Source of the DNA: Candidatus Nanoarchaeia archaeon
GTDB taxonomy: Archaea > Nanobdellota > Nanobdellia > Woesearchaeales > JAGLXL01
Assembly (NCBI GenBank): GCA_035289325.1
Contig: DATDXM010000068.1
Coordinates: 1 to 33,561, forward strand
DNA length: 33,561 nt
Direction: 5' to 3'
Under the pieces are notes generated by a model. It was given only the letters and a program-made list of their open reading frames with translations. It searched no databases and was not told where the DNA came from. Shown here one piece after another: positions 4,168 to 28,664 of this stretch. The first letter of the stretch is position 1. Every line of letters starts with the position of its first letter. The position numbers and the translations under genes are program-made.

Positions 4168-4189
4168 TTTATTGAATAATCTGCAACTA

Positions 4190-4197
4190 TATATTAA
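4190..4197 (-). promoter_or_regulatory. TATA-like box (TTAATATA on the minus strand) for the Lrp gene
   Basis: An A/T-only 8-mer sits exactly 22 nt upstream of the ATG at 4167. Confidence 0.45.
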
Positions 4198-4232
4198 ATT
4201 TTTGCTTATTTTTGGAATATTATTCAATTATC

Positions 4233-4240
4233 AATATTAA
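4233..4240 (+). promoter_or_regulatory. TATA-like box (AATATTAA) for the racemase gene
   Basis: An A/T-only 8-mer sits exactly 22 nt upstream of the ATG at 4263, in the divergent intergenic region shared with the Lrp gene. Confidence 0.45.
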
Positions 4241-4262
4241 TGTGATTTGGCTGTTTGAATGG

Positions 4263-11111: not shown

Positions 11112-11127
11112 TTTATATACTAATAAA
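11112..11127. promoter_or_regulatory. Divergent A/T promoter block (TTTATATACTAATAAA) between pelota and the 11144 gene
   Basis: TTTATTAG (minus strand) is 22 nt from the pelota ATG. TTTATATA (plus strand) is 24 nt from the ATG at 11144. Confidence 0.45.
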
Positions 11128-11143
11128 TATTTTGCAAATTGGC

Positions 11144-12334
11144 ATGAAATCAAAGAGAGGTCAGGCGGCAGCGGCTGCGGCACTGCTTGCAGTGATTGCC
11201 GGTCTTATTGTTCTGTATATCATATTTCTACAACCTGAGGACAGGGCAGAGTTGCTTGGGGAAGATTTCCGTGTACGCAGCGGCAGCACATCGTTGCGCG
11301 GCTCTGGAAAGAATATTACACTGCTGAATGAAACGCCGGGCAGGATTGACTTCTTAAGCCAGAAAAAGATTGACCATGGTATACCAACAACACACCTATT
11401 CACCCATACACAAGGAGTGGTGATTGAGCAATTGAATTCATTAAGTGTACGCCGCTCTGTTTTTTCGTCGGAAGACGGCAGCATGGAATTTAGCATCAAT
11501 GATTTGGCAAACACCGAGAATGTGCTGCTGAGTTTTGTGGTAACACAGAATAAAGGTCAATTGTTGATTACCGTTAATGATCAAGAGATATTTAACCGCG
11601 AGATAGCAACCGCAAATGTTGCACCAATTTCGATACCGCAGCGTGTACTCAGGCAGGACAATGTTATTGTGTTCCAAGTGAGTTCACCGGGTGCGGCGTT
11701 TTGGAGAACAAACCGCTATGCATTGCAAGATGTCAAAGTGACTGCGGATGTAACGAGAACAGATGCTCGGAGGAGCCGCAGCGTGTTTTTGATTGCAAAT
11801 GCTGAATATAATAATTTTGATCGCGCGTTTTTGAAGTTCCAGCCTGATTGCAACATTAACACTGCAAGCCCGCTGGAGATTTTTATCAATGAATTTAATG
11901 TGTATTCTGCGGTGCCGGATTGCGGCGTGCAACGGCTGCGCTTAGAGTTTCCCACCACTTATTTGAGGCGTGGTGATAATGAGATATCGCTGAGCATTGA
12001 GCGAGGGGATTACACGATTTCACAAATGGGGATTGAAACAGAACTGAAAGAAGTTGACTTTCCAGTCTATTACTTCGATGTGAGTGAAGAACAATTTAGA
12101 GGCATACATAATAATAGCAAGGAAGTCATTGTTCGGCTTGATTTTGTTGATAGCGTTGACAGAAAACAAGGACAGTTGATTGTGAATGGGCATATCAATG
12201 GGTTTGATACCAAAGAGCTTTTTGTTGAAGATGACATTTCCCGAGATATTGAGCGCGGCAATAACGCAATTAAGATTAAACCTGAGAGGACGGTTGATAT
12301 TAGAAAGATGACGGTGAGTGTTGTGGAGACTTAG
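11144..12334 (+). CDS. Exported hypothetical protein with a class III (type IV pilin-like) signal peptide candidate and three tandem beta-domain repeats
   Basis: The start is set at MKSKRGQAAAAAALLAVIAGLIVLYIIF: a basic tip, then RGQ, then a 21-aa hydrophobic segment. Three segments share the pattern L.I.VN...(I/F)... (R/G)(G/D)(D/N)N.I... (LLITVNDQEIF..QDNVIVF; LEIFINEFNVY..RGDNEISL; QLIVNGHINGF..RGNNAIKI). The ORF-track start at 11009 overlaps pelota and is unlikely. Confidence 0.7.
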   Translation: MKSKRGQAAAAAALLAVIAGLIVLYIIFLQPEDRAELLGEDFRVRSGSTSLRGSGKNITLLNETPGRIDFLSQKKIDHGIPTTHLFTHTQGVVIEQLNSLSVRRSVFSSEDGSMEFSINDLANTENVLLSFVVTQNKGQLLITVNDQEIFNREIATANVAPISIPQRVLRQDNVIVFQVSSPGAAFWRTNRYALQDVKVTADVTRTDARRSRSVFLIANAEYNNFDRAFLKFQPDCNINTASPLEIFINEFNVYSAVPDCGVQRLRLEFPTTYLRRGDNEISLSIERGDYTISQMGIETELKEVDFPVYYFDVSEEQFRGIHNNSKEVIVRLDFVDSVDRKQGQLIVNGHINGFDTKELFVEDDISRDIERGNNAIKIKPERTVDIRKMTVSVVET

Positions 12335-12733: not shown

Positions 12734-15700
12734 TTAGCCTATCAATCGCGCTATAAATCCTCGTATGAACCATATTATGCTTGAGCCTATATTCTTCATT
12801 TTATCTATGAAAGTTGATTCTTCGACTGCAGTGCACTTCATATCAACACATTTGCCTTCACAATCGTCATCAGTCAAGCATTCTGCCTGCTTGCAGATGT
12901 TTTTATCACAGAGTTTTGATGTGCAATCATTTGCGGTATTACATTGTTTTTCGTTGTCGCATAATGGACAGGAGCCTCCGCAATCAATATCAGATTCATC
13001 CTGATTCTTTATTCCATCGGTACAGGATACTGCTGCGGTGTATTCGCATAATCGTTCCTCTGCAGGTTTTGGCGTTGATTCAATCTTTGCTCCTTTTGGA
13101 CAGGTCTCATCCACTGAACATAATCTTGTTTGCTTTCCTTCAAGGCTGCATTCACTCCACGATAAGCAATCCCATTGTGTTTTACATATTATTTCGGGTA
13201 CGACCTTCTCTTTGCTTCTGATGCCCCCTCCTCCCCCACCACCTCCGCCGCCGCCCCCTGTGCTTGGCTCGCTGACTACTGGCGCCGGAGCTTGGGCAGG
13301 TTCCTCTGCAATCGCAAAATAGCTAAATCCTGGTGTGATTGCTTTGTACTGTATAGCTGATTCTGTTTCGCCCAAGAGTGTTGTGCTCATTTTTTCCCAT
13401 TTTTCTGTTAAGCGATAGAGAGAAATGCGGTTTTTATCTGCATTGTGTTCTGTAAACCATGCATTTGGAATTTCAAAAATGATTATTTTGTCTCCTTGTG
13501 TTTCTAGTGACGTTGTAATCTCCACGATGCTGTGTGTCTTTCCCAGCTCTGCAACTTGGGGAGCTTCTTGCAGTGGTATTACTTTTAGATGAACATTGCC
13601 TATTGTTTCAGCAGTCAATTCTATCTGCTTTATTGGAACGTTTTTATTCGTCACTTCGATAATTTTCTTATTTTCTACAACCGCGACAAATTCTGTTGGA
13701 GCACACGCTTCTTCGCTTCCAGAACAATCCTGATCAATTCCATCGCAGGTTGTATCCGGGGCACTTGGATTAACCGCAGCGCTGTTGTCGTTGCAGTCGT
13801 TTACTTTTGCAGCATATCCCTGAGGCGCTGTGCATGCGCTTGTGCTTTCTGCACTCAAACCAAAGCCATCATTGTCCTTATCAATAAAGAAGCTTAATTT
13901 CACGTTTTCATCAATTTGTGCATCACAATTGTTGTCTGCATTATCGCAGACTTCTGCTGACGATGGATTTATATTAGCATTGTCATCATCGCAATCATTT
14001 GCCACTGTAACATATTCTTGTGGCACTATGCATGCCTCTATCTTTTCTGTTTCACTACCGAAACCGTCGCCATCCTTGTCACTAAAAAATGTTGATAAAA
14101 CACCTTCATCCGTCTGCGCGTTGCAATTGTTATCGCTGTTATCACATATTTCTATTGATGCTGGATTTATTGCTGCACTGTTATCATTACAATCGCCGGC
14201 GCGCGCTGCATATCCGTCGAGTATTGAACAGGCTTCTTCTGTGTCCATAAGCAAGCCATATGTATCTTTATCTTGGTCACGATAAATTGTTACCTGCACA
14301 TTTTCGTCTATTTGTGCATTACAATTATTATCAATAGAGTCGCATCTTTCAGCTGCATTTGGATTTACGGCTGCGTTATTATCGTTGCAATCTATCACAC
14401 CGCATAATCCTCCTTCCAATTTTGAGCCATCGTTATCTGCGTCTGTGCCAAGTGCATCTGCTCCTGAACAGTCTTGGTCGATGTTGTCGCAGAGCAATTC
14501 TGTTGCAGATGGATTTATAGCTGGATTGTTGTCGTCGCAGTCATTTGAATTGATGACAAAACCAACGGGAGCTGTGCAGGATTTTATACTGCTTCCCGCA
14601 CCGAATCCGTCTTTATCGTTGTCTTGGAAGAAGTCGAGCTTATTGAATCCTTCGTCAACCTGCCCATCGCAATCATTGTCTATACCGTCGCAAATTTCTG
14701 CTATATTTGGATTAGCTTGTGCGCTATTGTCATCACAGTCTGCAAGCGCAGGAGAACATAATATTATTCCTCCTATAAAACCATCATTATCTTTATCTTC
14801 GTATGGACACATGCCCGTAAGTTGCGGATCATGCATGAATTGCGACCAGCCTATCTTGCCTGCTGGAATTTCCCATACAAAAATTGATCCTCGCTGTTTT
14901 GATTCAAAATTTATAGAGTCAAGGGCGAGTGGTGACGTTCCTATAAGTTCGAATGTTCCATCTCCCTCCAGATCATCAATCTTGAAACCATGAATCATTG
15001 GGTCCCCATTACCATAAGCACCCTCTTGGAGAACTATCGACTCTCCAGAACTCGAAAGAAATGCCATATATTGCTTGTCAAATACGGTATATGGGACAAT
15101 TAAATCCAGAGCGTCATCATTGTTTACATCCGATGAAAGTATATTTGAAACCTTGCCTCCTCCAAAACCTAAATCTCTTGGCCATCCGGGAAGCACGTTT
15201 GCATTTGCATCTCTTAATTCAAGCTGCCCAAACTGAGCTATTGCTAGTTCATTAAATCCATCGTCATTTGAGTCAACAATTGCAATGCTATATATACCGG
15301 TTTTCTGTATAGGCCAACCAGGTAACGTTTGTCCGTTCTTGTCGAGAACAGTTATGTAGTCTAGATCATGCCATATAACTTCGGGAATTCCGTCTTTTGT
15401 CATGTCTGCAACTAAAACTTGTGTTGTGCTTCCTGTTGCTGGCGTAGGCCAACCTGAGACAACAGACCCATCAGTGTTCAGAACATAGATACGACCAGTA
15501 AATCCGAAGGTCTCCATGATTGGTGTTACTATCTCTAATTCAGGATCATCGTCAAAATTACCGAACGCGGGGTTTGTTTGGAATTCTTTTTGGCCAATGG
15601 CACGAGATTTGCTCCCCCGCCTAAGAACGTTAAACGTTTGCCTATTCGGATAGTCTGTGTTCGGTAAACTCCACTTTTTTAAAATGGCACCTTTTTTATC

Positions 15701-18397
15701 AATAATGAAAAATGTCGCCATTCGGACCGGTTGATGCTCGTATGCTTGGATAACTATTTCAGATTCTCCATCCTGCTCAAGATCTATAACTGAAACTCCA
15801 TACACCAGAAGAATCCGGTCTAGAATCACTGGGAATCCACTTACTTCAGATCCATCTCCATTGTATGCATGCAGTTTTGATGTGCCTGATCCATGCGTTA
15901 CAGCCAAGATTTCATCGGCTGGATCGTTATCAAGATTTGTTACGGCTGGATGTCTGCTTCTTATGTATGTTGAGCCAAAATTTGGTATTTCTTTTATGAA
16001 TTTACCTTGTGCACTGTACAACAATATTGATTTTGTTAAACTTACAATAATCTCTTTTACTCCATTTCCATCGACATCTGCTGTCAAAACATCCATATTT
16101 CCGAGAAGTGCGTTGCCCCCGAATTGATAGTCCGGCCATGGAATCCGTTGCGGCCACCCTTCTTTTACCGTCGGATCAGCAACTATGTCAAATATATAAT
16201 CAATTATTGTATCGCCGGTTAACAATTGCACCGTTAATTTGAAATCATATGCTTGTAATGTCGGCTCTGGTGCAAATAATGCATTTATTTGATTAGTTTC
16301 TACATATTGAATTCTGTCGCTTGCATAGTTTGCATCTCCTTTTTTCTTATACTCTATGGTATATGAAGCAATATCTCGAAGATTTGTGGCTTGTATTTCT
16401 ATAGGCCGTTTTGCACTGTATAAATCGTTATTCAATGGAGAATCAATCTGTAGAATATCAATAGTTACTGTCGCTTCGGCTATACTTTCGCGACCGGCAT
16501 CGTCTTGCACTCGTAACTGAATAATAGATCGTCCGTCTGGTAATATTAAATTGTCATATAATAGACCACGCGTTCGGCCGCTATACGAAGCTATATCTCG
16601 CTGAATACCATTCACGATGTATTTAAGCTGATATGACACTGCATTTGTTCCGTCAGCGATACCTTTAATGTCTATAACTCCGTTTTCTGGCGGAGATAAT
16701 TCTAACTCAGCAATGGGCGGTGGGCTTGTTAGTTGAATCGCAACATCTGCCCTTACCAATCCATTTCCTTGTATGACCGAATCTTGATTAATGCTTTCTG
16801 TAGCGAATTTTATTGCTGACTTCATTTCTTCTGGTGTCCATGAAGGATTTTTTTGTTTCAGTAAAGCAGTTACGCCCGCAACATGCGGTGTTGCCATACT
16901 GGTTCCAGAAATAGCAATGTGTTTGTCGTCAAGACAGTGGCTGTCAATATTCTTTGCATCTTTTATTCTCTGCCATATTTTATCCTGCGAAGATTGAGCT
17001 GCACATATACTCACGCCTGGGGCTATAACATCTGGCTTATTCAACGTGCCCCCAGGCCATTGAACAGGTCCGCGTGAAGAAAATGATGCAATCTTCTTGG
17101 TCTTATCAACTGCTCCCACTGTAATTGCTGTTCGTGCAGTGCCAGGGCTTCCTATTGTTTGTTCAGCTGGACCAGAATTTCCAGCAGCAACGATAGCTAC
17201 AACACCGTTACGTACGGCTCTGTCAATTGCCTGTGATGCAAGATCATCTGGGTTTCCTCCACTTCCAAGGCTTAAACTTATGATATTCACTCCATCATTT
17301 ACGGCTTTGTCAATTCCGGCAATAACATTTGCTAATGTGCCGCTGCCACTTGAACTCAGCACTTTATATGCTACGATATGTGCATCTGGAGCGATGCCCC
17401 ATAATTCGTTTGATTCGTAAATATTATTATTGTTGTAGTCTCCTTTGCCTGCTGCTGTCGCTGCTACATGTGTACCGTGTCCGTGGTCATCCATCGGATC
17501 AGCATCGTTGTTGAAGAAATCATAGCCGCCGATGACTTTGCAGCCTGCTCCTAAGCATTCACCAAGATCCGGGTGTGTATAATCGACACCAGTATCTATA
17601 ATCCCGATGGTAATTCCCTGGCCTGTATATCCTTGCTCCCAAACTCCGCCAGGAGAACTTGCGCCAATCATATCGGCAGATTCCTGCAATAATATTTCTG
17701 TATAGTCTCCCGATGATAAAACATCTGTGCTTGCTTCGATTGGATCTCTTGTGAAGCTAAATACATTTGGTTTGTCTGGACTTGTTCTTGTGTACGTTTC
17801 TGTAATCTCATGATTATCTAAAATTCCTACTATAACGTTCGGATAAATCCTTTTTACTTCAGGCAACCGTGCGATTTCTTCCACTTCCTGCTCTGTAACT
17901 GTTTCCTCCAGAATAACAGCATTCATCACCGTGTTAGCAATTGGCATTATCTCTGTCGCTTCGACCGATGTTGTTTGTTCAATCTTCGCAATAATCTCCT
18001 GCTGCCCTTCGATAACCTGCTGCTCAACAACTTCAGAAACCTCAGCAAGTTCTGCTTCTAACACCTGAACTTGCTGTTCTGCTTCAATAACATCCGTTGC
18101 TTGCCCAATTAAATCTCCCGATATAATTCCACTTTCAATCTGTTTAATTTCTTCTTTAATTTCAAGAACTTCGGCGTTCTCTAAAACTGCTGGTTCTTCT
18201 AGTTCAACAATATATCCTTCGCACTCTGCCTCCGGCGGACAGGGGACTATCTCTACGATATTGGAAAACTGTGTTGCTTTACCTGCGATGTCTTTAGAAT
18301 AATCGATTCCTCCGTAGATAATAACCCCCATAATGATAATAGAAACAGTCCATAGAATAATCTGCTCTTTATGCTTTGCTTTGCTCCTCTTTTTCAC
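12734..18397 (-). CDS. Giant (1887 aa) secreted multidomain protein: signal anchor, I9-like propeptide, subtilisin (S8) protease, Ig-like domains, FG-GAP/VCBS propeller, six MopE-like Cys-rich repeats, pre-PGF-like domain, Gly12 linker, Cys-knot modules
   Basis: The S8 triad motifs are GIIDTGVDYTHPDL (D268), HGHGTHVAATAAG (H307) and SGTSMATPHVAG (S500). Eight D.(D/N).(D/N)G...E(I/L) loops occur with GWP/GFP motifs (aa ~745-1195). Repeats have the form DKD.DGF...C...DC(D/N)D.....NP...E.CD..DN.C. The sequence ITPGFSYFAIA is present. Later come CTDGIKNQDESDIDCGGSCPLC and further Cys spacers. The start is a GTG at 18397 with a TATA-like box 22 nt upstream. Confidence 0.9.
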   Translation of the reverse strand: MKKRSKAKHKEQIILWTVSIIIMGVIIYGGIDYSKDIAGKATQFSNIVEIVPCPPEAECEGYIVELEEPAVLENAEVLEIKEEIKQIESGIISGDLIGQATDVIEAEQQVQVLEAELAEVSEVVEQQVIEGQQEIIAKIEQTTSVEATEIMPIANTVMNAVILEETVTEQEVEEIARLPEVKRIYPNVIVGILDNHEITETYTRTSPDKPNVFSFTRDPIEASTDVLSSGDYTEILLQESADMIGASSPGGVWEQGYTGQGITIGIIDTGVDYTHPDLGECLGAGCKVIGGYDFFNNDADPMDDHGHGTHVAATAAGKGDYNNNNIYESNELWGIAPDAHIVAYKVLSSSGSGTLANVIAGIDKAVNDGVNIISLSLGSGGNPDDLASQAIDRAVRNGVVAIVAAGNSGPAEQTIGSPGTARTAITVGAVDKTKKIASFSSRGPVQWPGGTLNKPDVIAPGVSICAAQSSQDKIWQRIKDAKNIDSHCLDDKHIAISGTSMATPHVAGVTALLKQKNPSWTPEEMKSAIKFATESINQDSVIQGNGLVRADVAIQLTSPPPIAELELSPPENGVIDIKGIADGTNAVSYQLKYIVNGIQRDIASYSGRTRGLLYDNLILPDGRSIIQLRVQDDAGRESIAEATVTIDILQIDSPLNNDLYSAKRPIEIQATNLRDIASYTIEYKKKGDANYASDRIQYVETNQINALFAPEPTLQAYDFKLTVQLLTGDTIIDYIFDIVADPTVKEGWPQRIPWPDYQFGGNALLGNMDVLTADVDGNGVKEIIVSLTKSILLYSAQGKFIKEIPNFGSTYIRSRHPAVTNLDNDPADEILAVTHGSGTSKLHAYNGDGSEVSGFPVILDRILLVYGVSVIDLEQDGESEIVIQAYEHQPVRMATFFIIDKKGAILKKWSLPNTDYPNRQTFNVLRRGSKSRAIGQKEFQTNPAFGNFDDDPELEIVTPIMETFGFTGRIYVLNTDGSVVSGWPTPATGSTTQVLVADMTKDGIPEVIWHDLDYITVLDKNGQTLPGWPIQKTGIYSIAIVDSNDDGFNELAIAQFGQLELRDANANVLPGWPRDLGFGGGKVSNILSSDVNNDDALDLIVPYTVFDKQYMAFLSSSGESIVLQEGAYGNGDPMIHGFKIDDLEGDGTFELIGTSPLALDSINFESKQRGSIFVWEIPAGKIGWSQFMHDPQLTGMCPYEDKDNDGFIGGIILCSPALADCDDNSAQANPNIAEICDGIDNDCDGQVDEGFNKLDFFQDNDKDGFGAGSSIKSCTAPVGFVINSNDCDDNNPAINPSATELLCDNIDQDCSGADALGTDADNDGSKLEGGLCGVIDCNDNNAAVNPNAAERCDSIDNNCNAQIDENVQVTIYRDQDKDTYGLLMDTEEACSILDGYAARAGDCNDNSAAINPASIEICDNSDNNCNAQTDEGVLSTFFSDKDGDGFGSETEKIEACIVPQEYVTVANDCDDDNANINPSSAEVCDNADNNCDAQIDENVKLSFFIDKDNDGFGLSAESTSACTAPQGYAAKVNDCNDNSAAVNPSAPDTTCDGIDQDCSGSEEACAPTEFVAVVENKKIIEVTNKNVPIKQIELTAETIGNVHLKVIPLQEAPQVAELGKTHSIVEITTSLETQGDKIIIFEIPNAWFTEHNADKNRISLYRLTEKWEKMSTTLLGETESAIQYKAITPGFSYFAIAEEPAQAPAPVVSEPSTGGGGGGGGGGGGIRSKEKVVPEIICKTQWDCLSWSECSLEGKQTRLCSVDETCPKGAKIESTPKPAEERLCEYTAAVSCTDGIKNQDESDIDCGGSCPLCDNEKQCNTANDCTSKLCDKNICKQAECLTDDDCEGKCVDMKCTAVEESTFIDKMKNIGSSIIWFIRGFIARLIG
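13223..13258 (-). repeat. Gly12 coding tract (mixed GGN codons; C/G-rich on the plus strand)
   Basis: Read on the minus strand, the codons are ggg ggc ggc ggc gga ggt ggt ggg gga gga ggg ggc, between EPST and IRSK. Confidence 0.9.
13703..14809 (-). repeat. Six tandem coding repeats (about 55-65 aa each) of a Cys/Asp/Asn-rich putative metal-binding (MopE-like) motif
   Basis: The repeats cover aa ~1197-1565 of the giant protein. Each unit has an Asp-rich DKDNDGF-type loop followed by DC(D/N)DN..A.NP.A.E.CD..DN(D/N)C(D/N).Q.DE. Confidence 0.8.
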
Positions 18398-18427: not shown

Positions 18428-18690
18428 GCATCCTAAGCAAGCAGTATCTCCGAATGAAAATCCAACTTAGTAATATTTTATATTTCAAACGTTTTTTTGG
18501 TACTTTTGGCACGGTCGTAAAGTCCATCAGGCTCTCTATTGTCCTCAGAACTGCGTCATTGAATCGCAGCGAGCTGCGGCGTATGGACGCTGTTTGAGCA
18601 ATCAAAAATATACCGCCGCTATTATAAATCAAAGGGCAGGTAACTTTTTATAGTGTGCTTTATTAGTTCTGTATTGAAAAAGAGGAATTT

Positions 18691-20712
18691 ATGGCTGATA
18701 CATCTGCTGAAACACCGAAAAAAGAGGCAGCTGCTGAAACACCGAAGAAGGAAGCGGACTGGGCTGCGCAGTTTAAGGTAGGTGAAGGGAAACGAGTAAC
18801 GCCTGAGCCGCGTGCCGATCCCGCTGTTAGTGGCGGGGTGGGAGTAGCTACAAGAGTCATCCGAAAAGGCTTTGGTGAGGATTGGACGTTAAAAAAAGAT
18901 TGGCAGCAGACCAAAGAATTGTTTCCACAACGTGCAGAAACGGCTTGGAAAGTAACAAAAGGAACGGGCAAAGCTGGCTGGAGAGTTGGCTCTTTTCTTG
19001 TTACCGGAATTGGTCTTAACGCGTTCCATTTTGGGTTTAGGTATGCGGATATGATTCTTATTGTCCTTGGCATCTTCAAGTTCGCACTTCAATACGCAGG
19101 AGTGATTGAATCAACCGGAGCAACTGCAGCATTGATATCTACCATTTTATTGTTGTTCACAGCGCTTGCAGTACTCAATGGGGAAGGGTTTGTGCTTGCG
19201 GTGCTTGGTGTCATCTATGTCATGTATTTCAATTTTCCACCCAATCCTGCATTTTTGTATATTGCGCTGCCTATCATTATTTTTGGTACTATTCTTTTTG
19301 GGCTTCCCAGCGTGCTGAATGTGCGAGTGATTCCTGCATTCCTTGTCTATTTTTATGATATTGGTGCGTTCCACACGCTTGTTCAATCATTAGGGTTAGT
19401 TGTTCCAGATACCATGAGCAATGTCATCGCCCTCACCCCATGGTGGACCATTATCGGTTTTGTTTATCTCGACACCGAACAATACAAAAGAAAAGGGTTT
19501 GTTGGTTTCATGAAAGGTTTATGCATGCTGTATGTTGTTTTTTCTGTGCTTGCGACTGCCATGCCCGGCATCGGGTTTGCGCAAACGCCGCTGCTTGAAG
19601 AATTCCAGCAGGCACGAACACAGCTTGAAGCAGGAACACTGAAAGGGGAACATCCGATACTCTCTCAAATTGCGTGTGCGGTGAATATAGGAAAGATTAC
19701 ACAGCAGATAGGAAAAGAACAGACCGGAGCGCTGAGCTTTGATGAATGTGTCAAACGAAGGCAGGCTGAATCAAAATGCAAGCCGCTCGAAAAGACTGAC
19801 TTAGAAGAGTATCAAGAATGCATTCAAGTTGCACGCGGCGAAAAACAAGATGCACGTGTTGTTGGGGCGATCGATGCTACACAGAGCGAACCGACAGTAT
19901 TCAGAGTAGAAAAAGGCCAAGGATATCTTGATAAGATTGATGCTGATGAGCCTGTGCCGTTTTTGCTTGATGTGAAAAATCCGCGCAAGAACGAATTAAA
20001 CTTTGAAGTTACCTGCGTCTATGAAGCAGGAAACAAGAAGATTGATGGCAATGGATTTACGTTCACAACGACCGAAGAATTGCCTGAGCCGCATGCGTTT
20101 TCATGCAGGACATCAGCGTTGCCGCCGGGCATTGGAAAATGGAAAGTGCGTGTAATTGCACGCGGGTTGACGACGACTGTTGGACTGCATCGCTTTTTTG
20201 TTGGAGATAAAAAAGAACTGTTAGAAGATATCGCACAGACATTTTTTCTGACGTCCTCTGCGCAAGCTGCTGCGTCGACTGCTGCACAGCCTCGCGGACC
20301 GCCTGATCCTGTGCGATTGGATTTTATTTTGGGGCAGCCACCACAAAACCCACTTATTCAAACGAAGGATCCACAGCTTATTGCAACGATAAAGAACGCA
20401 GGCGGTGGCGAGATTGTTGGCATTGAACGAGCAGAGATTGAGATGGATACAGCTCAGTTTTCATTAGGGCCAGAATGCAAGCTGCAGGCGAATGGAGATT
20501 TTTTTGTGAATCCGGAGATCAATGAGATTGTTGCAAACAGGAAGAAAGACAGGGAAATTCGTTTTGCGTTTTGTGAGCTTGTGATGAGTGATGTTTACCG
20601 ATTCCCGGAAATCCCATTCCCTAAATATTTTATCAGCACGATTACGTATGATTATGCTATCGAGAAAGATTTTCCAATCACGGTGTTCCAGCCGAGAGAG
20701 GCAATAACATGA
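18691..20712 (+). CDS. Polytopic membrane protein (about 7-8 TM) with a ~370-aa C-terminal region carrying the same module as the three downstream lipoproteins
   Basis: The N-terminus has a tandem AETPKKEA repeat. Hydrophobic helices span aa ~100-300. The C-terminal region has IKNAGGGEIVG, the Cys pair LGPECK..FAFCEL and the terminal strand YFISTITYDYAIEKDFPITV, which parallel motifs in the next three genes. TTTTTATA at 18645-18652 and a GAGGA-like SD precede the ATG. Confidence 0.8.
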   Translation: MADTSAETPKKEAAAETPKKEADWAAQFKVGEGKRVTPEPRADPAVSGGVGVATRVIRKGFGEDWTLKKDWQQTKELFPQRAETAWKVTKGTGKAGWRVGSFLVTGIGLNAFHFGFRYADMILIVLGIFKFALQYAGVIESTGATAALISTILLLFTALAVLNGEGFVLAVLGVIYVMYFNFPPNPAFLYIALPIIIFGTILFGLPSVLNVRVIPAFLVYFYDIGAFHTLVQSLGLVVPDTMSNVIALTPWWTIIGFVYLDTEQYKRKGFVGFMKGLCMLYVVFSVLATAMPGIGFAQTPLLEEFQQARTQLEAGTLKGEHPILSQIACAVNIGKITQQIGKEQTGALSFDECVKRRQAESKCKPLEKTDLEEYQECIQVARGEKQDARVVGAIDATQSEPTVFRVEKGQGYLDKIDADEPVPFLLDVKNPRKNELNFEVTCVYEAGNKKIDGNGFTFTTTEELPEPHAFSCRTSALPPGIGKWKVRVIARGLTTTVGLHRFFVGDKKELLEDIAQTFFLTSSAQAAASTAAQPRGPPDPVRLDFILGQPPQNPLIQTKDPQLIATIKNAGGGEIVGIERAEIEMDTAQFSLGPECKLQANGDFFVNPEINEIVANRKKDREIRFAFCELVMSDVYRFPEIPFPKYFISTITYDYAIEKDFPITVFQPREAIT

Positions 20713-21560
20713 AAAGTGTAGCTTTGGTGATGATGGTATTATTATTGGTTTCTTGTACGCGAAGCACTGCGAATGACCCCATTGATATCAATTTCAAAAG
20801 TGGCACATCAGGCATTGAGCTTCAATTACTTGCTAACCATCCGCCACGGCGCATTGTTGAAGGAAGCACATTCAATATTGCAGTGCAGGTAAGCAATACA
20901 GGTGCATATGACATGGGTGTTGGCGAAATCACAGTGATCGGATTGGATCAGGTGTATACGCCAATCGAACGGCAAGATGCAGTGATACCCCCGTTAAAAG
21001 GACGGAGCGAAAGCAATAATCAAGGTGACTTTTATGTGCAAGAGTTTAGTGGGGGCAAGACTGTTGTGCCACCAGGTGCAAAAGAGTATCGCGCGAAGTT
21101 TCTGCTTGTTGCAGCATATGAATACATGAATGTTGTTGGAAAGGATGTGTGTATTAATCCTGCGCTAATTGAAATCGAATCTGAACAGGCAAGCTGTCAA
21201 ATTCAAGACCGCATACGCTTATCAGGTCAAGGTGCACCGGTTGCTGTCACGCAGATCGAAGAAACAGTAAGTCCCGTAGGTGATGATGTTAAAATTGACT
21301 TTATACTCACGATTGATAACCGCGGACGCGGAAAAGTAGTGTCGCCTATACTCATCAGTGATGTGCGCTTGGGCACAAAGCCATTGACCTGCAATAAGCG
21401 GGAGATAACGATGTTTGAGCTTGAGAATAAGAGAAACACGGTTGTGTGTTCACGAACCGAGCAGCGGCAAAGTGCCTACACGTCACCATTATCTGCGACA
21501 CTTCAATATATGTACAAAACAACAGAAGAAGGAGAGTTTGTTGTGCAGCGATCGCGCTAG
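20709..21560 (+). CDS. Lipobox-bearing secreted protein, paralog 1 of a two-domain beta-sandwich (CARDB-like) family
   Basis: An ATGA overlap links it to the upstream stop. The signal plus lipobox is MKSVALVMMVLLLVSC. Motifs are QVSNTGAYD, AAYEYMNVVGKDVCINP...ASCQIQD, GAPVAVTQ, IDNRGRGKVVSP, LTCN..VVCS and ATLQYMYKT. Confidence 0.8.
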   Translation: MKSVALVMMVLLLVSCTRSTANDPIDINFKSGTSGIELQLLANHPPRRIVEGSTFNIAVQVSNTGAYDMGVGEITVIGLDQVYTPIERQDAVIPPLKGRSESNNQGDFYVQEFSGGKTVVPPGAKEYRAKFLLVAAYEYMNVVGKDVCINPALIEIESEQASCQIQDRIRLSGQGAPVAVTQIEETVSPVGDDVKIDFILTIDNRGRGKVVSPILISDVRLGTKPLTCNKREITMFELENKRNTVVCSRTEQRQSAYTSPLSATLQYMYKTTEEGEFVVQRSR

Positions 21561-21561
21561 A

Positions 21562-21569
21562 TTTAAAAA
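21562..21569 (+). promoter_or_regulatory. TATA-like box TTTAAAAA for paralog 2
   Basis: It sits exactly 22 nt upstream of the ATG at 21592. A GAGGG also lies 5 nt before the ATG, so a leadered alternative exists. Confidence 0.45.
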
Positions 21570-21591
21570 GGCAGAAGATTTGAGGGAACGT

Positions 21592-22518
21592 ATGAAAAAA
21601 GTGGGATTGGTTATTCTTGTTGGGCTGTTCATCCTGTCATGCACGCCGCGCAATCCTGAAAATATTAATCAAGTATCTGCAGTCACAGAATTTGTACGAT
21701 CAGGAGTGCAGGGTGTGGATATGCGGTTTGTGCAAAACTTGCCGCCCCGACAAATTTATGACACTGCTGATTTGTTTGCACTGCTTGAATTGAGGAACTT
21801 AGGTAATTATGATCTTGGCCGCGAGACATTCCAGCAGTGCGTTGTTCAGCTTGGCGGATTTGATCCAAGCATTATTCGCGGGATTAACGAACGGCAAAGC
21901 TGCGGTGATTTGCCGGGTAAGAGCGAATTTGTTGTCGATGGCGGATTTTCAACGGTTGAATTTGCATCAAGCAGCATCATATTGCCGCAAGATGTTGATA
22001 AATACGAGCCGCCGCTCGTGGCGACTGCATGCTACGAATACAAAACGGTTGCTGCACCTCAAGTGTGCATTGACCCGGATTTTTTTGAGATAACATCGTC
22101 GCAACGCGCTTGTGATGTGCGCGACTTTGGGCTTGGTGGAGGGCAAGGCGGGCCAGTAGGGGTAACATATGTTAATGTTGACATGGTTGGCAGCCGTGCA
22201 CAATTCCAGATAGAAGTAGCAAACCTTGGCTCAGGACGGGTTGTGTCGCCACGGGCAAGCATTACCCAATGCCCAGGTGGGTTGAGATATAAAGATTTTG
22301 ATGAAGTGCAGTTTCAGGTTGAATTATCAGGAGCGCGGCTTGTGCGATGTGCGCCCAGTGACCAATTTGTGCGCTTGGGAGATGGACGAGGGCGGTTTGT
22401 ATGCACATTTGATGTAGGAAATGTGCCGGCGTATGAAACACCGATGCGGATTGAGCTGAATTATAATTATATGCAGTCCATACGAACGCCTGTTGAGATT
22501 ATACGGACGCCGGAGTAA
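21592..22518 (+). CDS. Lipobox-bearing secreted protein, paralog 2
   Basis: The start is set at MKKVGLVILVGLFILSC. Motifs are ELRNLGNYD, TACYEYKTVAAPQVCIDP...RACDVRD, GGPVGVTY, VANLGSGRVVSP, LVRCAP..FVCTF and IELNYNYMQ. Confidence 0.8.
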   Translation: MKKVGLVILVGLFILSCTPRNPENINQVSAVTEFVRSGVQGVDMRFVQNLPPRQIYDTADLFALLELRNLGNYDLGRETFQQCVVQLGGFDPSIIRGINERQSCGDLPGKSEFVVDGGFSTVEFASSSIILPQDVDKYEPPLVATACYEYKTVAAPQVCIDPDFFEITSSQRACDVRDFGLGGGQGGPVGVTYVNVDMVGSRAQFQIEVANLGSGRVVSPRASITQCPGGLRYKDFDEVQFQVELSGARLVRCAPSDQFVRLGDGRGRFVCTFDVGNVPAYETPMRIELNYNYMQSIRTPVEIIRTPE

Positions 22519-22546
22519 GCTGAAATTGCCGATTACATTCAAAATG

Positions 22547-22554
22547 TTTAAATA
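22547..22554 (+). promoter_or_regulatory. TATA-like box TTTAAATA for paralog 3
   Basis: It sits exactly 22 nt upstream of the ATG at 22577. Confidence 0.45.
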
Positions 22555-22576
22555 CCGCAAGAAAATCCATTATGTT

Positions 22577-23485
22577 ATGAAAAGAGTGATGTTGTTCTCA
22601 GTCTTGCTTGTCGTATTTCTTGCTGCGTGTGAACAAAATGATGAGGTTTCGAATGTTGATTCTGTATTTGAAGGCGGCAGCCAAGGTGTTGTTGCAGAAT
22701 TCGAGCCGTTTGGCGTTGAGGAAAGCGGCGTATTCACCATATTTGACACGGAGAATTTTCCCATTGAGATTGTATTAAGGAATCTTGGCGAAGAAGATAT
22801 TTTGCCTGGGAATGTGAATATTACGCTCAAAGGAATCAATACAAATGATTTTACAGGCATTGTTTCACGAGAATTGACAAATGATGAGACGATTGAAAAA
22901 ATTTCTGAGTTTAACCCGCAGGGAGATGAGGAAATTATTGACTTTACGCCTGTTGAAGATGCTCGGTATAAGCTGAATGTGACGGGTTTTTTCCAGCCCG
23001 ATATTTTTGCGCTGGTTGATTTTAATTACAAGACACATGTTGTGATACCTAATGTTTGTTACAAAGAAGACCCGACAGATGAATCAATCTGTGATGTGCA
23101 AGGCAACAAGGCAGTATTTGTATCAAGCGCACCTGTTACTGTTACAAGTGTAACAGAGGACATCGCCGGCAGAGGAATTATTGTGCTGTCCATTATTATT
23201 TCAAATGTAGGCGGAGGACGAGTAACGTTGCCGAATACTGATTTTGACACACGCTTCGATCAAATTGCATTTACCATGGAAACAGATTCTGCAGATTGGG
23301 AATGTAGATCAGGCGGGCGGGAGAATCAAGCACGCTTAGTTAATGGACAGGCGACAATAACATGCAGACTGCGTGAACCACTTGAGGAGGAGACACTGTT
23401 TACAAAGCAGGTTGAACTTACACTGAAATATAAATATCAGGATATTATTCAGCAGACGATTAGGATTAGAGAGAGTTTGGAGTAG
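22577..23485 (+). CDS. Lipobox-bearing secreted protein, paralog 3
   Basis: The start is set at MKRVMLFSVLLVVFLAAC. Motifs are VLRNLGEED, VDFNYKTHVVIPNVCYKE...SICDVQG, SAPVTVTS, ISNVGGGRVTLP, WECRS..ITCRL and LTLKYKYQD. Confidence 0.8.
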   Translation: MKRVMLFSVLLVVFLAACEQNDEVSNVDSVFEGGSQGVVAEFEPFGVEESGVFTIFDTENFPIEIVLRNLGEEDILPGNVNITLKGINTNDFTGIVSRELTNDETIEKISEFNPQGDEEIIDFTPVEDARYKLNVTGFFQPDIFALVDFNYKTHVVIPNVCYKEDPTDESICDVQGNKAVFVSSAPVTVTSVTEDIAGRGIIVLSIIISNVGGGRVTLPNTDFDTRFDQIAFTMETDSADWECRSGGRENQARLVNGQATITCRLREPLEEETLFTKQVELTLKYKYQDIIQQTIRIRESLE

Positions 23486-26351: not shown

Positions 26352-26373
26352 CCGATGATGTGGAAAGAAGGGG

Positions 26374-26381
26374 TTTAAATA
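26374..26381 (-). promoter_or_regulatory. TATA-like box (TATTTAAA on the minus strand) for rfcS
   Basis: It sits exactly 22 nt upstream of the ATG at 26351. An adjacent CCTATAAT lies further upstream. Confidence 0.5.
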
Positions 26382-26518
26382 ATTATAGGCGAGCGGACTA
26401 ATGCACATCAATAAAATAATCTCGAACAGAACAAGGGCTGTTTTTACTTATCTCAAGCAGGATTGCCTGATCCTACTGCATAAGGCTATCAATTTGTCCT
26501 TCTTGAATCTCCTGAAAT

Positions 26519-27650: not shown

Positions 27651-28664
27651 ATGACCGTAGAAGATGATATTCTTGCATTGATGCAGTTAAAAGGGCCAGT
27701 GCTTCCTGCCGACGTGGCAAAGCAAATCAAAACGAATATTCTCCTCGCATCGGCATATTTATCCGAAATCGCGAGCAGAAAAAAATTAAAAATATCCTCG
27801 CTAAAAGTCGGAGGCAGCCCAGTCTATTTTCTTCAAGGGCAGGAAGAAAAACTTGAAAAGTTTGCAAGCAACCTGAACGAGAAAGATTTGAGAGCATATG
27901 ACATGCTGAAGCAAAAGAGAGTGCTGCGTGACAGCCATATGACGCCCCTGATGCGTGTTGCATTGCGCAGCATCAAGGATTTTGCAGTGCCGATCAACGT
28001 CACTTTCGGAAATTCACAAGAGCTTTTTTGGAAGTGGATCACCACAACAGAAACTGAAGTGAACAAACTGATTCATGAAGAACTCGAAGGGCCGAAAGAA
28101 GAGTCTGTGCAAATTATTGAGAAGCCTGCGCCTGAATTAAAAGAAACAAAACGAAAGAAGAAAGTTGAGATGGTTGAGGTAGTTCCGTTACTGGATACAA
28201 AACGGGAGCCTGAATTGACTGAGCGAATGTCTGATGCAAAAATTCAAAAGAGTGAACTGTTGAAGAAAAAGAAGAAGGTTGAGTCTGCTCCCGATGATAG
28301 AACTGCATCATTTGAAGATCAAATATCATCGTTTTTTGAACAGAAGGGCATCGCTGTACTCAAAGAAGATATTATCGCCAAAGGAAAAGAAGCAAGCTAT
28401 GTCGTTGAGATTCCGTCAGCAATGGGCATGCTTCGCTATCTATGCAAGGCGCGAAACAAGAATAGCACAGAGCGGGACTTAAGCAGCGCATTTGTGGATG
28501 GGCAATTACAAAAAATGCCAGTAGTCTTTTTACATACGGGGAAGCTCAATGCAAAGGCACAGGCACTGGTAAAAACTGAACCTTTTAAAACAATGGTATT
28601 ATTCAAGCTTACCGATGGGAGTAAAACTCAAAGATCTGGCAGTCTCAAAACAGATTACGCTTGA
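27651..28664 (+). CDS. Hypothetical protein: N-terminal winged-helix-like domain, K/E-rich linker, C-terminal alpha/beta domain
   Basis: The 337-aa ORF has coding-like composition. Its 3' end overlaps the fen start by 50 nt. I recognise no family motif. Confidence 0.65.
   Translation: MTVEDDILALMQLKGPVLPADVAKQIKTNILLASAYLSEIASRKKLKISSLKVGGSPVYFLQGQEEKLEKFASNLNEKDLRAYDMLKQKRVLRDSHMTPLMRVALRSIKDFAVPINVTFGNSQELFWKWITTTETEVNKLIHEELEGPKEESVQIIEKPAPELKETKRKKKVEMVEVVPLLDTKREPELTERMSDAKIQKSELLKKKKKVESAPDDRTASFEDQISSFFEQKGIAVLKEDIIAKGKEASYVVEIPSAMGMLRYLCKARNKNSTERDLSSAFVDGQLQKMPVVFLHTGKLNAKAQALVKTEPFKTMVLFKLTDGSKTQRSGSLKTDYA

What the first reader, a model, noticed from the sequence alone, without database searches (positions are those of the whole stretch)
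18691..23485. Four-gene cluster: a polytopic membrane protein plus three lipobox paralogs sharing one unassigned, disulfide-marked two-domain module
Four consecutive same-strand genes carry the same extracytoplasmic module.
Shared features:
- Domain 1 has a (V/L)(S/R)N(T/L)G..D strand.
- A linker carries the conserved Cys pair VC(I/Y)..(P/E)......C.(I/V)(Q/R)(D/G).
- A (G/S)(A/G)PV.VT strand follows.
- Domain 2 has N.G.G(K/R/E)(V/I).
- A second Cys pair and a terminal aromatic strand complete it (LQYMYKT, LNYNYMQ, LKYKYQD, ITYDYAI).
How the copies differ:
- In the first gene the module is fused to about 7-8 TM helices and a charged N-terminal tail with a tandem AETPKKEA repeat.
- In the other three it follows a signal peptide ending in a lipobox-like Cys (LVSC, ILSC, LAAC).
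Organisation:
- Gene 2 overlaps gene 1 by ATGA.
- Genes 3 and 4 each have their own A/T box 22 nt upstream.
The motifs look CARDB-like, but I cannot place the family. One membrane-embedded copy plus three lipid-anchored copies suggests a heteromeric envelope structure such as an anchor, cell-cell contact device or sheath. The cluster is transcribed divergently from the giant protease gene. It is my best candidate for an undescribed system in this window.
Basis: partly seen in the sequence, partly recalled or inferred. Interest (0 to 1): 0.8.

Follow-up and report, generated by a model that had tools for sequence, protein, structure and literature searches.

The report
Conserved five-gene Woesearchaeal envelope protein cluster

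Summary
g2, g3 and g4 (283, 308 and 302 aa) are clear paralogs. Each has an invariant lipobox Cys, two beta-sandwich domains and conserved Cys pairs.

g1 (673 aa) has a disordered tail, about 7 TM helices, a 4-Cys helical stalk and two beta-sandwich domains. Its second domain is demonstrably homologous to that of g2-g4. Its first domain matches only in architecture.

No Pfam, NCBIfam, PHROG, PADLOC or PDB sequence match exists. Fold searches find only generic tandem Ig-like sandwiches.

The interpretation needs three corrections.
- The conserved unit has five genes. A 396-aa gene, g0 (11144-12334), has a prepilin-like K(G/A)Q N-terminus and always precedes g1.
- The giant protease is an insertion between g0 and g1 found in no other of 24 loci. 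It is not a partner.
- In most genomes the set is split into [Pelota<- g0 g1 g2] and [g3 g4 ->RFC], with both halves retained.

g0, g3 and g4 are about as conserved as the Pelota and PheRS-alpha neighbours. The g1 membrane domain diverges fastest, which suggests an anchor rather than a transporter.

Best reading: an order-wide, probably essential, heteromeric extracytoplasmic envelope complex. Its function is unknown, and assembly and role are inferred.

The parts
11144..12334 (+). g0: fifth, previously missed member (396 aa). It has a prepilin-like or signal-anchor N-terminus (MKSKRG|QAAAAAALLAVIAGLIVLYIIF), then a beta-rich ectodomain with three similar 'G.L.I.LNG' stretches and one invariant Cys pair.
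   Evidence: tblastn gives 50% identity to L001 g0. Alignment A5 shows a conserved K(K/R)(G/A)Q + Ala-rich hydrophobic helix. It lies immediately upstream of g1 in 22 of 24 loci. At least 213 relatives, named ones Woesearchaeota/Nanoarchaeota, none with a Pfam domain.
11112..11119 (+). TTTATATA box upstream of g0
   Evidence: Sequence read directly. This is a consensus match only.
12734..18397 (-). NOT a component: a 1887-aa S8 subtilase / FG-GAP / MopE-repeat protein gene inserted into the g0-g1 spacer.
   Evidence: Pfam hits. The g0-g1 gap is 6357 bp here against 2-461 bp in 22 of 23 other loci.
18645..18652 (+). TTTTTATA box upstream of g1
   Evidence: This is a consensus match only.
18691..20712 (+). 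g1: polytopic membrane subunit (673 aa)
   Evidence: ORF. AF2 model with mean pLDDT 79.8. The family has 155 representatives at the 50% identity level, all of similar length.
18691..19020 (+). g1 residues 1-110: disordered, charged cytoplasmic tail with the AETPKKEA x2 repeat. Its length varies, and it is absent in the L003/L004 clade.
   Evidence: pLDDT below 50. 20 K+R against 14 D+E over residues 1-118. g1 is 509-514 aa in L003/L004.
19045..19560 (+). g1 residues 119-290: about 7 TM helices. Conserved intramembrane Asp223 (FFLDxG) and Pro250-Trp251-Trp252 ... Gly256.
   Evidence: AF2 helices. Hydropathy and loop charges. Column conservation: D223 in 112/123, W252 in 123/125.
19594..19833 (+). 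g1 residues 302-381: extracytoplasmic helical stalk with four near-invariant Cys (329, 353, 363, 377).
19897..20199 (+). g1 beta-sandwich domain 1 (residues 403-503), with Cys442-Cys472 invariant.
   Evidence: pLDDT above 95. Invariant Cys. Only weak profile similarity to domain 1 of g2-g4.
20311..20688 (+). g1 beta-sandwich domain 2 (residues 541-666), with Cys596-Cys628 invariant. Homologous to domain 2 of g2-g4.
   Evidence: hhalign 78-85% probability. Decoy-controlled hmmsearch.
20709..21560 (+). g2: lipoprotein paralog (283 aa; lipobox LVSC, Cys16). Its start overlaps the g1 stop (ATGA).
   Evidence: The -4 overlap with g1 recurs in 13 of 23 loci.
21562..21569 (+). TTTAAAAA box ending 22 nt before the g3 ATG
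21592..22518 (+). g3: lipoprotein paralog (308 aa; lipobox ILSC, Cys17). Eight further conserved Cys and an invariant GGGQGxPV inter-domain loop.
   Evidence: AF2 mean pLDDT 87.5, two beta-sandwiches at 42-160 and 189-304. Invariant columns. Cys conservation.
22547..22554 (+). TTTAAATA box ending 22 nt before the g4 ATG
22577..23485 (+). g4: lipoprotein paralog (302 aa; lipobox LAAC, Cys18)
   Evidence: Followed by RFC on the opposite strand in nearly all loci.

Best explanation
g0-g4 encode the subunits of one extracytoplasmic, membrane-anchored protein complex of the cell envelope. It is specific to Woesearchaeota-type DPANN archaea and probably essential there.

**Proposed working**
- g1 sits in the membrane through about 7 TM helices, with its N-terminus inside. 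It displays a disulfide-stapled helical stalk and a tandem beta-sandwich module outside.
- g2, g3 and g4 are exported by Sec-type signal peptides. They are lipid-modified on the lipobox Cys and held at the outer face of the membrane.
- Their homologous tandem beta-sandwich modules pack with that of g1 into a hetero-oligomer of four related modules.
- g0 is held by its N-terminal hydrophobic helix, possibly after prepilin-peptidase cleavage at K-G/A|Q. It adds a beta-rich distal part.
- The role is structural: a membrane-proximal scaffold or coat, not catalysis or transport.

**Shown**
- Paralogy, domain architecture, lipobox and Cys conservation.
- Five-gene co-conservation and gene order.
- Predicted outside location of the beta-sandwich parts.

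**Inferred**
- Physical assembly, stoichiometry, lipidation, g0 processing and the structural role.
For: **Co-inheritance**
- In 88 loci the genes occur either as Pelota(-) g0 g1 g2 g3 g4 RFC(-), or split as [Pelota- g0 g1 g2] plus [g3 g4 RFC-].
- Split genomes keep both halves 25-30 kb apart on one contig.

**Coupling**
- The g1 stop and g2 start overlap in most loci, and the g0-g1 gaps are tiny.

**Common origin of the ectodomains**
-.

**Outside location**
- Invariant lipobox Cys and paired Cys in all families.
- 7 TM helices, with the two K/R-bearing inter-helix loops falling on the cytoplasmic side of an N-in topology.
- Archaeal lipobox proteins are lipidated by AliA, which is present in DPANN (PMC12462473).

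**Constraint**
- g0, g3 and g4 are 28-68% identical across the order. That is similar to Pelota (28-53%) and PheRS-alpha (39-63%) in the same genome pairs.
- At least 250 species-level genomes carry a g3 relative.

**Anchor rather than machine**
- The g1 TM region is the least conserved part, with no BLASTP hit between orthologs at 1e-5.
- No enzyme or transporter family matches any of 58 g1 members.

**Fold**
- The matches are only non-enzymatic tandem Ig-like sandwiches: integrin legs, transglutaminase C-terminal barrels, arrestin, the STT3 soluble domain, WxLIP and RbmA.
Against: - No direct evidence of assembly. Co-folding could not be run.
- g1 keeps a membrane-embedded Asp (112/123) and a PWW motif. 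These are unexpected for a passive anchor and could mark a channel or a binding site.
- The invariant Gly-rich GGGQGxPV loop of g3 looks like a functional site rather than lattice packing.
- Woesearchaeal metatranscriptomes already report other genes annotated as S-layer proteins among the top-expressed genes (PMC11606122). This set is therefore probably not the S-layer itself, which leaves 'scaffold' vague.
- Domain-1 homology between g1 and g2-g4 is not demonstrated.
Confidence: 0.45

Rival explanations
1. Uptake or transfer conduit. The g1 membrane domain is a channel or carrier, with the intramembrane Asp223 and PWW as its functional core. The ring of four beta-sandwich modules plus g0 captures or guides a substrate that these metabolically reduced symbionts must scavenge, such as lipids or a glycan.
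For: - Conserved intramembrane Asp and PWW motif in g1.
- Order-wide retention with housekeeping-like conservation of the soluble parts.
- Weak, sub-threshold hints of carbohydrate-binding-module or BcsB-like jelly-rolls in g0.
- The metabolic dependence of Woesearchaeota on other organisms or on the environment is documented (PMC11606122).
Against: - The TM domain is the fastest-evolving part, the reverse of what transporters usually show.
- There is only one conserved polar TM residue.
- No ATPase or known permease partner appears in any of the loci.
- Neither the PDB fold search with the whole g1 model nor the PDB sequence search matched the TM region.
Confidence: 0.2
2. Host or partner-cell contact device. 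The complex is an adhesin or attachment platform for the episymbiotic lifestyle, and g0 acts as a pilin-like tip or fibre subunit.
For: - The g0 N-terminus resembles EppA-type prepilin sites (KGQ / RAQ; PMC4371748; alignment).
- Ig-like folds resemble adhesin or matrix proteins such as RbmA, FnBPA, WxLIP and integrins.
Against: - Conservation comparable to housekeeping proteins across lineages from very different habitats. Adhesins that track hosts usually diverge fast.
- No pilus ATPase or PilC platform gene is in the cluster.
- The lipoproteins have only about 20-25 residues between the lipid-anchor Cys and the first domain, so they cannot reach far from the membrane.
Confidence: 0.15
3. The S-layer lattice itself. 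g2-g4, with or without g0, are the main surface-layer proteins, lipid-anchored at their N-termini, and g1 is the lattice anchor.
For: - Universal, single-copy, extracellular, Ig-like domain proteins.
- S-layers built of Ig-like domains are known in other archaea (own knowledge).
Against: - Woesearchaeal MAGs already contain other genes annotated as S-layer proteins that are among the most expressed (PMC11606122).
- A lattice made of four or five different small subunits lying close to the membrane is atypical.
- No S-layer Pfam domain is found.
Confidence: 0.1
4. No complex. The genes are merely neighbouring paralogous surface lipoproteins with independent or redundant roles. The synteny reflects the generally frozen gene order of this housekeeping region.
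For: - The whole PheRS-TrmB-Pelota ... RFC-PRC-EndA neighbourhood is syntenic, so local order alone is weak evidence.
- The set has been split between g2 and g3 without loss.
Against: - All three paralogs, plus g0 and g1, are retained in every sufficiently long locus, including the deepest clade (L003/L004), with orthology one-to-one.
- Redundant paralogs would be lost sporadically in such reduced genomes.
- g1 and g2 are translationally coupled.
Confidence: 0.1

Closest known systems
CARDB / DUF11-type Ig-like beta-sandwich repeats of prokaryotic surface proteins
   Same: - All-beta sandwich domains on the cell surface.
- An 'N.G.G' strand motif.
- The best viral-library fold match is a DUF11-domain protein.
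   Different: - No member of the g1 or g3 families reaches any CARDB or DUF11 profile, even at E <= 1.
- The present module is a fixed two-domain unit with conserved disulfides and a Gly-rich inter-domain loop, not a variable repeat array.
Archaeal lipobox lipoproteins (AliA/AliB-dependent; Haloferax volcanii model)
   Same: - An N-terminal Sec-type signal peptide ending in L-x-[SGA]-C.
- The Cys is invariant in 189 of 190 orthologs.
- AliA is reported to be present in DPANN (PMC12462473).
   Different: - Lipoproteins as a group are mostly solute-binding or redox proteins (own knowledge). These have no such fold or domain.
- Lipidation is not tested here.
Enterococcal / lactobacillal WxL loci (WxLIP with DUF916/DUF3324 plus paralogous WxL proteins)
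   Same: - A gene cluster for a multi-protein cell-surface complex made of a membrane-anchored beta-sandwich protein plus several paralogous surface partners (own knowledge).
- WxLIP structures appear among the fold matches of g3 (9i1y, 9i25).
   Different: - Bacterial. No sequence relationship. Different anchoring (C-terminal TM, non-covalent WxL binding to peptidoglycan; own knowledge).
- TM-scores are only about 0.22-0.27.
[quoted passage not shown]
   Same: - The g0 N-terminus, K(K/R)(G/A)|Q followed by a hydrophobic helix of about 20 residues, matches listed EppA processing sites KGQV / KGQI / RAQI (PMC4371748).
- Large non-fibre 'pilin-like' envelope proteins are known (bindosome).
   Different: - No PilB or PilC genes in the cluster.
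- No +5 Glu.
- Processing is untested, and a plain signal-anchor is equally possible.
Eukaryotic translocon-associated TRAP or OST accessory subunits (one polytopic subunit plus several single-anchor subunits with lumenal beta-sandwich domains)
   Same: - Same architectural logic: a polytopic membrane protein surrounded by several beta-sandwich ectodomain subunits (own knowledge).
- The archaeal STT3/AglB soluble domain is among the fold matches of both g1 and g3.
   Different: - No STT3 Pfam match and no WWDYG or DxD motifs.
- The resemblance is generic. This is an analogy only.

Membership tests
CARDB (PF07705) / DUF11 surface repeat | Significant match to the family profile | tested here: not met
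   No hit in the four window proteins, in 49 g3 orthologs or in 58 g1 homologs, even at E <= 1.
CARDB (PF07705) / DUF11 surface repeat | Ig-like seven-strand beta-sandwich fold | tested here: inconclusive
   AF2 models are all-beta sandwiches. The top match in the viral predicted-structure library is a DUF11 protein, but TM-score is 0.2. PDB hits are generic tandem sandwiches.
Prokaryotic/archaeal lipobox lipoproteins | Signal peptide with [LVI][ASTVI][GAS]C lipobox and conserved +1 Cys | tested here: met
   LVSC, ILSC and LAAC in the window. The Cys is conserved in 23/23, 84/85 and 82/82 orthologs. The LPAM_1 profile is touched by 5 of 49.
Prokaryotic/archaeal lipobox lipoproteins | Thioether-linked archaeol on the Cys and signal-peptide cleavage | not testable with these tools
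   Needs Triton X-114 partitioning or mass spectrometry, as in PMC12462473.
Type IV pilin-like (class III signal peptide) proteins, applied to g0 | Charged n-region, [KR][GA] cleavage motif, then an uninterrupted hydrophobic helix | tested here: met
   K(K/R)(G/A)Q + AAAAxLLAIIAGLIVLYILF is conserved in 15/15 aligned orthologs. It matches the sites tabulated in PMC4371748. The FlaFind program itself was not run.
Type IV pilin-like (class III signal peptide) proteins, applied to g0 | Association with PilB-type ATPase and PilC-type platform genes, or processing by a prepilin peptidase | tested here: not met
   No ATPase or T2SSF gene in any locus examined. Processing is not testable.
Solute-binding proteins of ABC/TRAP transporters | Alpha/beta periplasmic-binding fold, SBP profile match, adjacent permease and ATPase genes | tested here: not met
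   All-beta models, no SBP profile and no ABC genes nearby.
Archaeal S-layer proteins | Match to a known S-layer domain family; very high abundance | tested here: inconclusive
   No S-layer Pfam domain. Abundance is not testable. Other genes are annotated as S-layer proteins in Woesearchaeota MAGs.
Oligosaccharyltransferase STT3/AglB | 13-TM STT3 core, DxD and WWDYG motifs, STT3 profile match | tested here: not met
   No STT3 Pfam hit in 58 g1 members. There are only about 7 TM helices. The PWW motif lies inside a TM helix. The STT3 soluble-domain fold hits have rmsd 13-15 A.
Phage or defence-system proteins | Match to PHROGs or PADLOC models | tested here: not met
   No family for any of g0-g4.

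The most novel reading that the evidence does not exclude
g0-g4 form a previously unrecognised, essential envelope machine that is a signature of Woesearchaeota-type DPANN archaea. It would be a pseudo-symmetric ring of four paralogous tandem beta-sandwich modules, one fused to a 7-TM domain and three lipid-anchored, capped by a prepilin-like subunit. The conserved intramembrane Asp / PWW site of g1 would serve as a gate for importing host- or environment-derived building blocks such as lipids or glycans.
Probability: 0.12. Interest if true: 0.8.

Novelty: new variant of a known kind. Interest (0 to 1): 0.55.

Why it matters
- Woesearchaeota are among the most widespread DPANN archaea. No cultured representative was found in the papers searched here, and a large share of their genes has no assigned function (PMC11606122, PMC8204110).
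- This work defines a concrete five-gene, order-wide set of extracytoplasmic proteins. Three of them are as conserved as translation and replication proteins.
- The set has a clear domain anatomy and testable predictions: lipidation, prepilin-like processing and hetero-oligomer formation.
- It is a good entry point to the unknown cell-envelope biology of these organisms.
- It can serve as a lineage marker.
- It is an example of a membrane protein that shares its ectodomain with its lipoprotein partners.
- The parts themselves are ordinary surface-protein building blocks (Ig-like sandwiches, lipobox signals). No function is established, so the finding is a well-characterised lead rather than a new mechanism.

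Tried and rejected
**Searches that found nothing**
- Pfam and NCBIfam scans of the four window proteins, and Pfam scans of g0 plus all members of the g0, g1 and g3 alignments, gave nothing above noise.
- PHROGs and PADLOC gave nothing, so a viral or defence origin is rejected.
- PDB sequence-profile searches with the g0, g1 and g3 families gave no hit below E = 0.07.
- Foldseek against the PDB and the viral predicted-structure library returned only generic tandem beta-sandwiches, with TM-scores at or below 0.3. No specific family could be assigned, and the PDB search with the g1 model gave no match for its TM domain.

**Comparisons that failed or were weak**
- Full-length hhalign of the g1 family against the g3 family failed at 5% probability. 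Homology became visible only after cropping to the C-terminal region and merging g2-g4 into one profile.
- Internal duplication was not detectable (0.3-0.4% probability), whether domain 1 against domain 2 of g3 or of g1.

**Ideas considered and rejected**
- g1 as a dedicated prepilin-type aspartyl peptidase for g0. Only one conserved Asp is present and there is no GxGD pair.
- g1 as an AglB/STT3-like, exosortase-like or CAAX-like enzyme. No profile hits and no conserved catalytic set.
- The giant protease as a functional partner. It is an insertion unique to this genome.

**Technical limits**
It was repeated with 18 closer sequences.
- A word-indexed search with g1 found only 3 proteins because of candidate capping. 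The exhaustive search was needed.
- A literature search for a description of this cluster found only anonymous 'Module 98' families specific to Woese- and Pacearchaeota (PMC8204110). Whether g0-g4 belong to that module was not checked.

Full report
**1. What is in the sequence**

The region holds four co-oriented genes:
- g1 at 18691-20712 (673 aa)
- g2 at 20709-21560 (283 aa)
- g3 at 21592-22518 (308 aa, counted from the ATG that gives MKKVGLV...)
- g4 at 22577-23485 (302 aa, counted from MKRVMLF...)

- The g1 stop and g2 start overlap as ATGA.
- The AETPKKEA tandem repeat is at the g1 N-terminus.
- The lipobox-like ends are LVSC, ILSC and LAAC.
- TTTAAAAA and TTTAAATA boxes each end 22 nt before the g3 and g4 start codons.

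The organism is a Woesearchaeota-type DPANN archaeon. All named homologs come from Woesearchaeota, Nanoarchaeota or Nanoarchaeia MAGs. The neighbouring genes are archaeal housekeeping genes: PheRS, TrmB, Pelota, an intein-containing RFC small subunit, a PRC-barrel protein and tRNA intron endonuclease.

**2. Are the four proteins related?**

g2, g3 and g4 are unambiguous paralogs.
- BLASTP gives E 1e-9 to 5e-30 at 23-29% identity over the full length.
- hhalign of the ortholog families gives 99.9-100% probability.

Conserved features across orthologs (g3):
- The lipobox Cys is present in 23/23 g2, 84/85 g3 and 82/82 g4 orthologs.
- g2 and g4 carry two further Cys pairs present in at least 81 of 82 orthologs: one in the inter-domain linker and one in domain 2.
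- g3 carries four pairs.

The AlphaFold2 model of g3 (mean pLDDT 87.5) shows the signal peptide, a short helix and two beta-sandwich domains at residues 42-160 and 189-304. They are joined by the disulfide-bearing linker and an invariant GGGQGxPV loop.

g1 is more distant.
- BLASTP against g2-g4 is not significant.
- Full-length profile comparison gives 5% probability.
- The g1 model (mean pLDDT 79.8, above 95 in the C-terminal half) has five parts:
  - a disordered tail at residues 1-110
  - about seven TM helices at 119-290
  - a helical stalk at 302-381 with four near-invariant Cys
  - two beta-sandwiches at 403-503 and 541-666, each with an invariant Cys pair

The relationship appears once the comparison is restricted to the C-terminal region.
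- Cropping g1 to that region and comparing with a merged g2-g4 profile gives 85% probability, P = 6e-6, over 215 collinear columns. The N.G.G strand, the domain-2 Cys pair and the terminal Y.Y strand are in register.
- In a decoy-controlled test the g2-g4 profile reaches E <= 0.01 on 10 of 125 real g1 proteins (best 9.6e-7), against 0 of 250 reversed or shuffled decoys. Every listed top hit is domain 2 to domain 2. The reciprocal search behaves the same way.
- Both models also retrieve the same generic PDB folds.

I conclude that domain-2 homology is shown. The two-domain architecture is shared. Domain-1 homology is plausible but not demonstrated. g1 lacks the linker Cys pair of the lipoproteins.

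**3. Is it a known family?**

No.
- Pfam and NCBIfam give nothing for the four window proteins, and Pfam gives nothing for g0, for 15 g0 orthologs, for 49 g3 orthologs or for 58 g1 homologs.
- PHROGs and PADLOC give nothing.
- PDB sequence profiles give nothing below E = 0.07.
- Foldseek finds only generic tandem Ig-like sandwiches at TM-scores at or below 0.3:
  - integrin alpha legs
  - transglutaminase or protein 4.2 C-terminal barrels
  - arrestin and VPS26
  - the Pyrococcus STT3 soluble domain
  - WxLIP and RbmA
  - macroglobulin domains
  - a giant-virus DUF11 protein
- The PDB fold search with the g1 model returned no match for its TM bundle.
- The 'CARDB-like' impression is therefore a fold-class resemblance, not membership.

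**4. Context: the unit has five genes, and the protease is an intruder**

Related loci show a fifth gene, g0 (about 390-404 aa, no Pfam domain), directly upstream of g1.
- The window has it too, at 11144-12334. It is 50% identical to the L001 ortholog.
- In the window it is separated from g1 by the 1887-aa S8 / FG-GAP / MopE-repeat protease gene on the other strand.
- Among 24 loci carrying both genes, the g0-g1 gap is 2-461 bp in 22. It is 2.5 kb in L018 and 6.4 kb only in the window. In my ORF-based count, locus L089 would add a third exception, because a Bro-N domain gene sits in the same spacer there.
- The protease is therefore a lineage-specific insertion into a spacer that repeatedly receives insertions. 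It is not a conserved partner.

Across 88 loci the arrangement takes one of two forms:
- Contiguous: Pelota(-) g0 g1 g2 g3 g4 RFC(-).
- Split, in roughly two thirds of loci: [g3 g4 RFC-] alone within +/-8 kb, with [Pelota- g0 g1 g2] elsewhere (L086, L087).

Two long contigs prove that split genomes retain both halves 25-30 kb apart:
- JAUYKZ010000009.1: L088 and L032.
- PCXY01000005.1: L089 and L053.

Other distribution facts:
- L002 and L045 show an intermediate form, with 3.7 kb inserted between g2 and g3.
- All three lipoprotein paralogs are present one-to-one even in the deepest clade sampled (L003/L004). The triplication therefore predates the radiation of the loci sampled here.
- At least 250 species-level genomes carry a g3 relative.
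- The g1 family has 155 representatives at the 50% identity level, all of similar length.
- The g0 family has at least 213 members of 385-440 aa.

**5. The fifth protein, g0**

- g0 begins with a short basic stretch. Then comes K(K/R)(G/A)Q, followed by an Ala-rich, uninterrupted hydrophobic helix and a conserved P.ER..(I/L)L segment.
- This matches the processing sites tabulated for Methanococcus EppA-dependent pilins (KGQV, KGQI, RAQI; PMC4371748). g0 is therefore a candidate class III (prepilin-like) signal-peptide protein.
- A plain N-terminal signal-anchor is the alternative.
- The rest is beta-rich, with three similar 'G.L.I.LNG' stretches and one invariant Cys pair. Only sub-threshold hints of carbohydrate-binding jelly-rolls appear.
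- No pilus ATPase or platform gene accompanies it.

**6. Topology and conservation pattern**

Topology of g1:
- Seven helices, with the 1-118 tail carrying 20 K/R.
- The two K/R-bearing inter-helix loops fall on the same side as the N-terminus in a 7-helix model.
- These features place the C-terminal region outside the cell.
- That agrees with its conserved Cys pairs.

Identity to the window protein, in the same loci (L005, L006, L001, L008, L016, L024, L036, L003, L004):

| Protein | Identity (%) |
|---|---|
| g3 | 38-64 |
| g4 | 28-68 |
| g0 | 28-61 |
| Pelota | 28-53 |
| PheRS-alpha | 39-63 |
| g2 | 26-41 |
| g1 | 20-29 |

- The g1 TM region gave no BLASTP hit at all at 1e-5.
- Within that TM region only a few positions are strongly kept: Asp223 (112/123), Pro250 (110/113), Trp251 (95/114), Trp252 (123/125) and Gly256 (110/125), plus a few Gly and aromatic residues.

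**7. Most likely mechanism**

- The five products are extracytoplasmic, co-inherited and partly translationally coupled, and four share a module.
- The simplest reading is one membrane-anchored hetero-oligomer of the envelope.
- g1 would be the integral anchor. g2-g4 would be lipid-anchored paralogous subunits packing with the g1 ectodomain. g0 would be a helix-anchored, possibly prepilin-processed, distal subunit.
- Lipidation is plausible. Lipobox proteins are widespread in archaea, and the lipidating enzyme AliA is reported in DPANN (PMC12462473).
- The soluble parts are strongly conserved and the TM part evolves fast. No enzyme or transporter signature is present. Together these favour a structural scaffold or coat over catalysis or transport (confidence 0.45).

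Rivals:
- A conduit or uptake device using the conserved intramembrane Asp/PWW site (0.2).
- A host-contact device (0.15). The housekeeping-like conservation and the short tether of the lipoproteins argue against it.
- The S-layer proper (0.1). Other genes annotated as S-layer proteins are already among the most expressed Woesearchaeota genes (PMC11606122).
- Unrelated neighbouring lipoproteins that form no complex (0.1).

None of these is tested directly. Co-folding, which would be the decisive computation, was not available.

**8. Novelty and verdict**

- The families are anonymous 'hypothetical proteins' in every source.
- The closest published statement I found is that a module of 51 families of mostly unknown function is specific to Woese- and Pacearchaeota, and that many DPANN lineage-specific families are membrane-bound or extracellular (PMC8204110). 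Whether g0-g4 are in that module was not checked.
- The building blocks are ordinary: Ig-like sandwiches, lipobox signals and a pilin-like N-terminus.
- The new elements are the defined five-gene set, the polytopic protein that shares its ectodomain with three lipoprotein partners, and the order-wide housekeeping-level conservation.
- I rate it a new variant of a known kind (a lineage-specific cell-envelope protein complex), with interest 0.55.
Its interpretation is partly supported: it missed g0, it wrongly tied the cluster to the protease, and the heteromeric structure remains an inference.

Noticed in passing
window 12734-18397 (-): A 1887-aa surface protease with an S8 subtilase domain, an FG-GAP beta-propeller, six MopE-like Cys-rich repeats, a Gly run and a hydrophobic C-terminal end. 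It sits inside the otherwise tiny g0-g1 spacer. The same spacer holds other insertions elsewhere: 2.5 kb in L018 and a Bro-N domain gene in L089. The spacer is a recurrent insertion site.
   Followed up: partly
window 23493-26411 (-): The RFC small subunit is 972 aa because it carries an intein. Orthologs in L002-L004 are about 320 aa and intein-free. L001 (961 aa) also carries an Intein_splicing domain.
   Followed up: partly
window 2903-3721 (+), 3718-4227 (-), 4212-4940 (+): A class IV (D-amino-acid / branched-chain) aminotransferase and an Asp/Glu racemase flank an AsnC/Lrp regulator. Their functions look like D-amino-acid metabolism of the kind bacteria use, which is unexpected in a DPANN archaeon. 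This may relate to the bacterial-type genes reported in Woesearchaeota.
   Followed up: no
loci L005-L007, L012, L013, L015-L017 and others: Many MAG records titled 'uncultured Methanosarcinales archaeon' carry this Woesearchaeota-type cluster, with g3 45-64% identical and the same synteny. The organism label is probably a placeholder or a mis-assignment.
   Followed up: no
L087 12775-13026, L088 9841-10080, L089 10971-11198: In genomes where the cluster is split, g2 is followed (directly in L088 and L089, two genes downstream in L087) by a small glutaredoxin gene on the opposite strand, and a GH3 glycosidase gene lies nearby. This may be a coincidence, or it may relate to the many disulfides of the cluster proteins.
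   Followed up: no
window 8-1096 (+): The ORF at the window start has a weak, sub-threshold similarity to teneurin/Rhs YD-shell repeats (E = 4e-4, 18.9 bits against a cut-off of 50).
   Followed up: no
window 27651-28664 (+): A 337-aa ORF between the tRNA-intron endonuclease gene and the next downstream ORF has no Pfam match in the window. An unannotated 314-aa gene occupies the same position in L001, between the endonuclease and a FEN1-type (XPG) nuclease gene. It is another conserved unknown in this neighbourhood.
   Followed up: no
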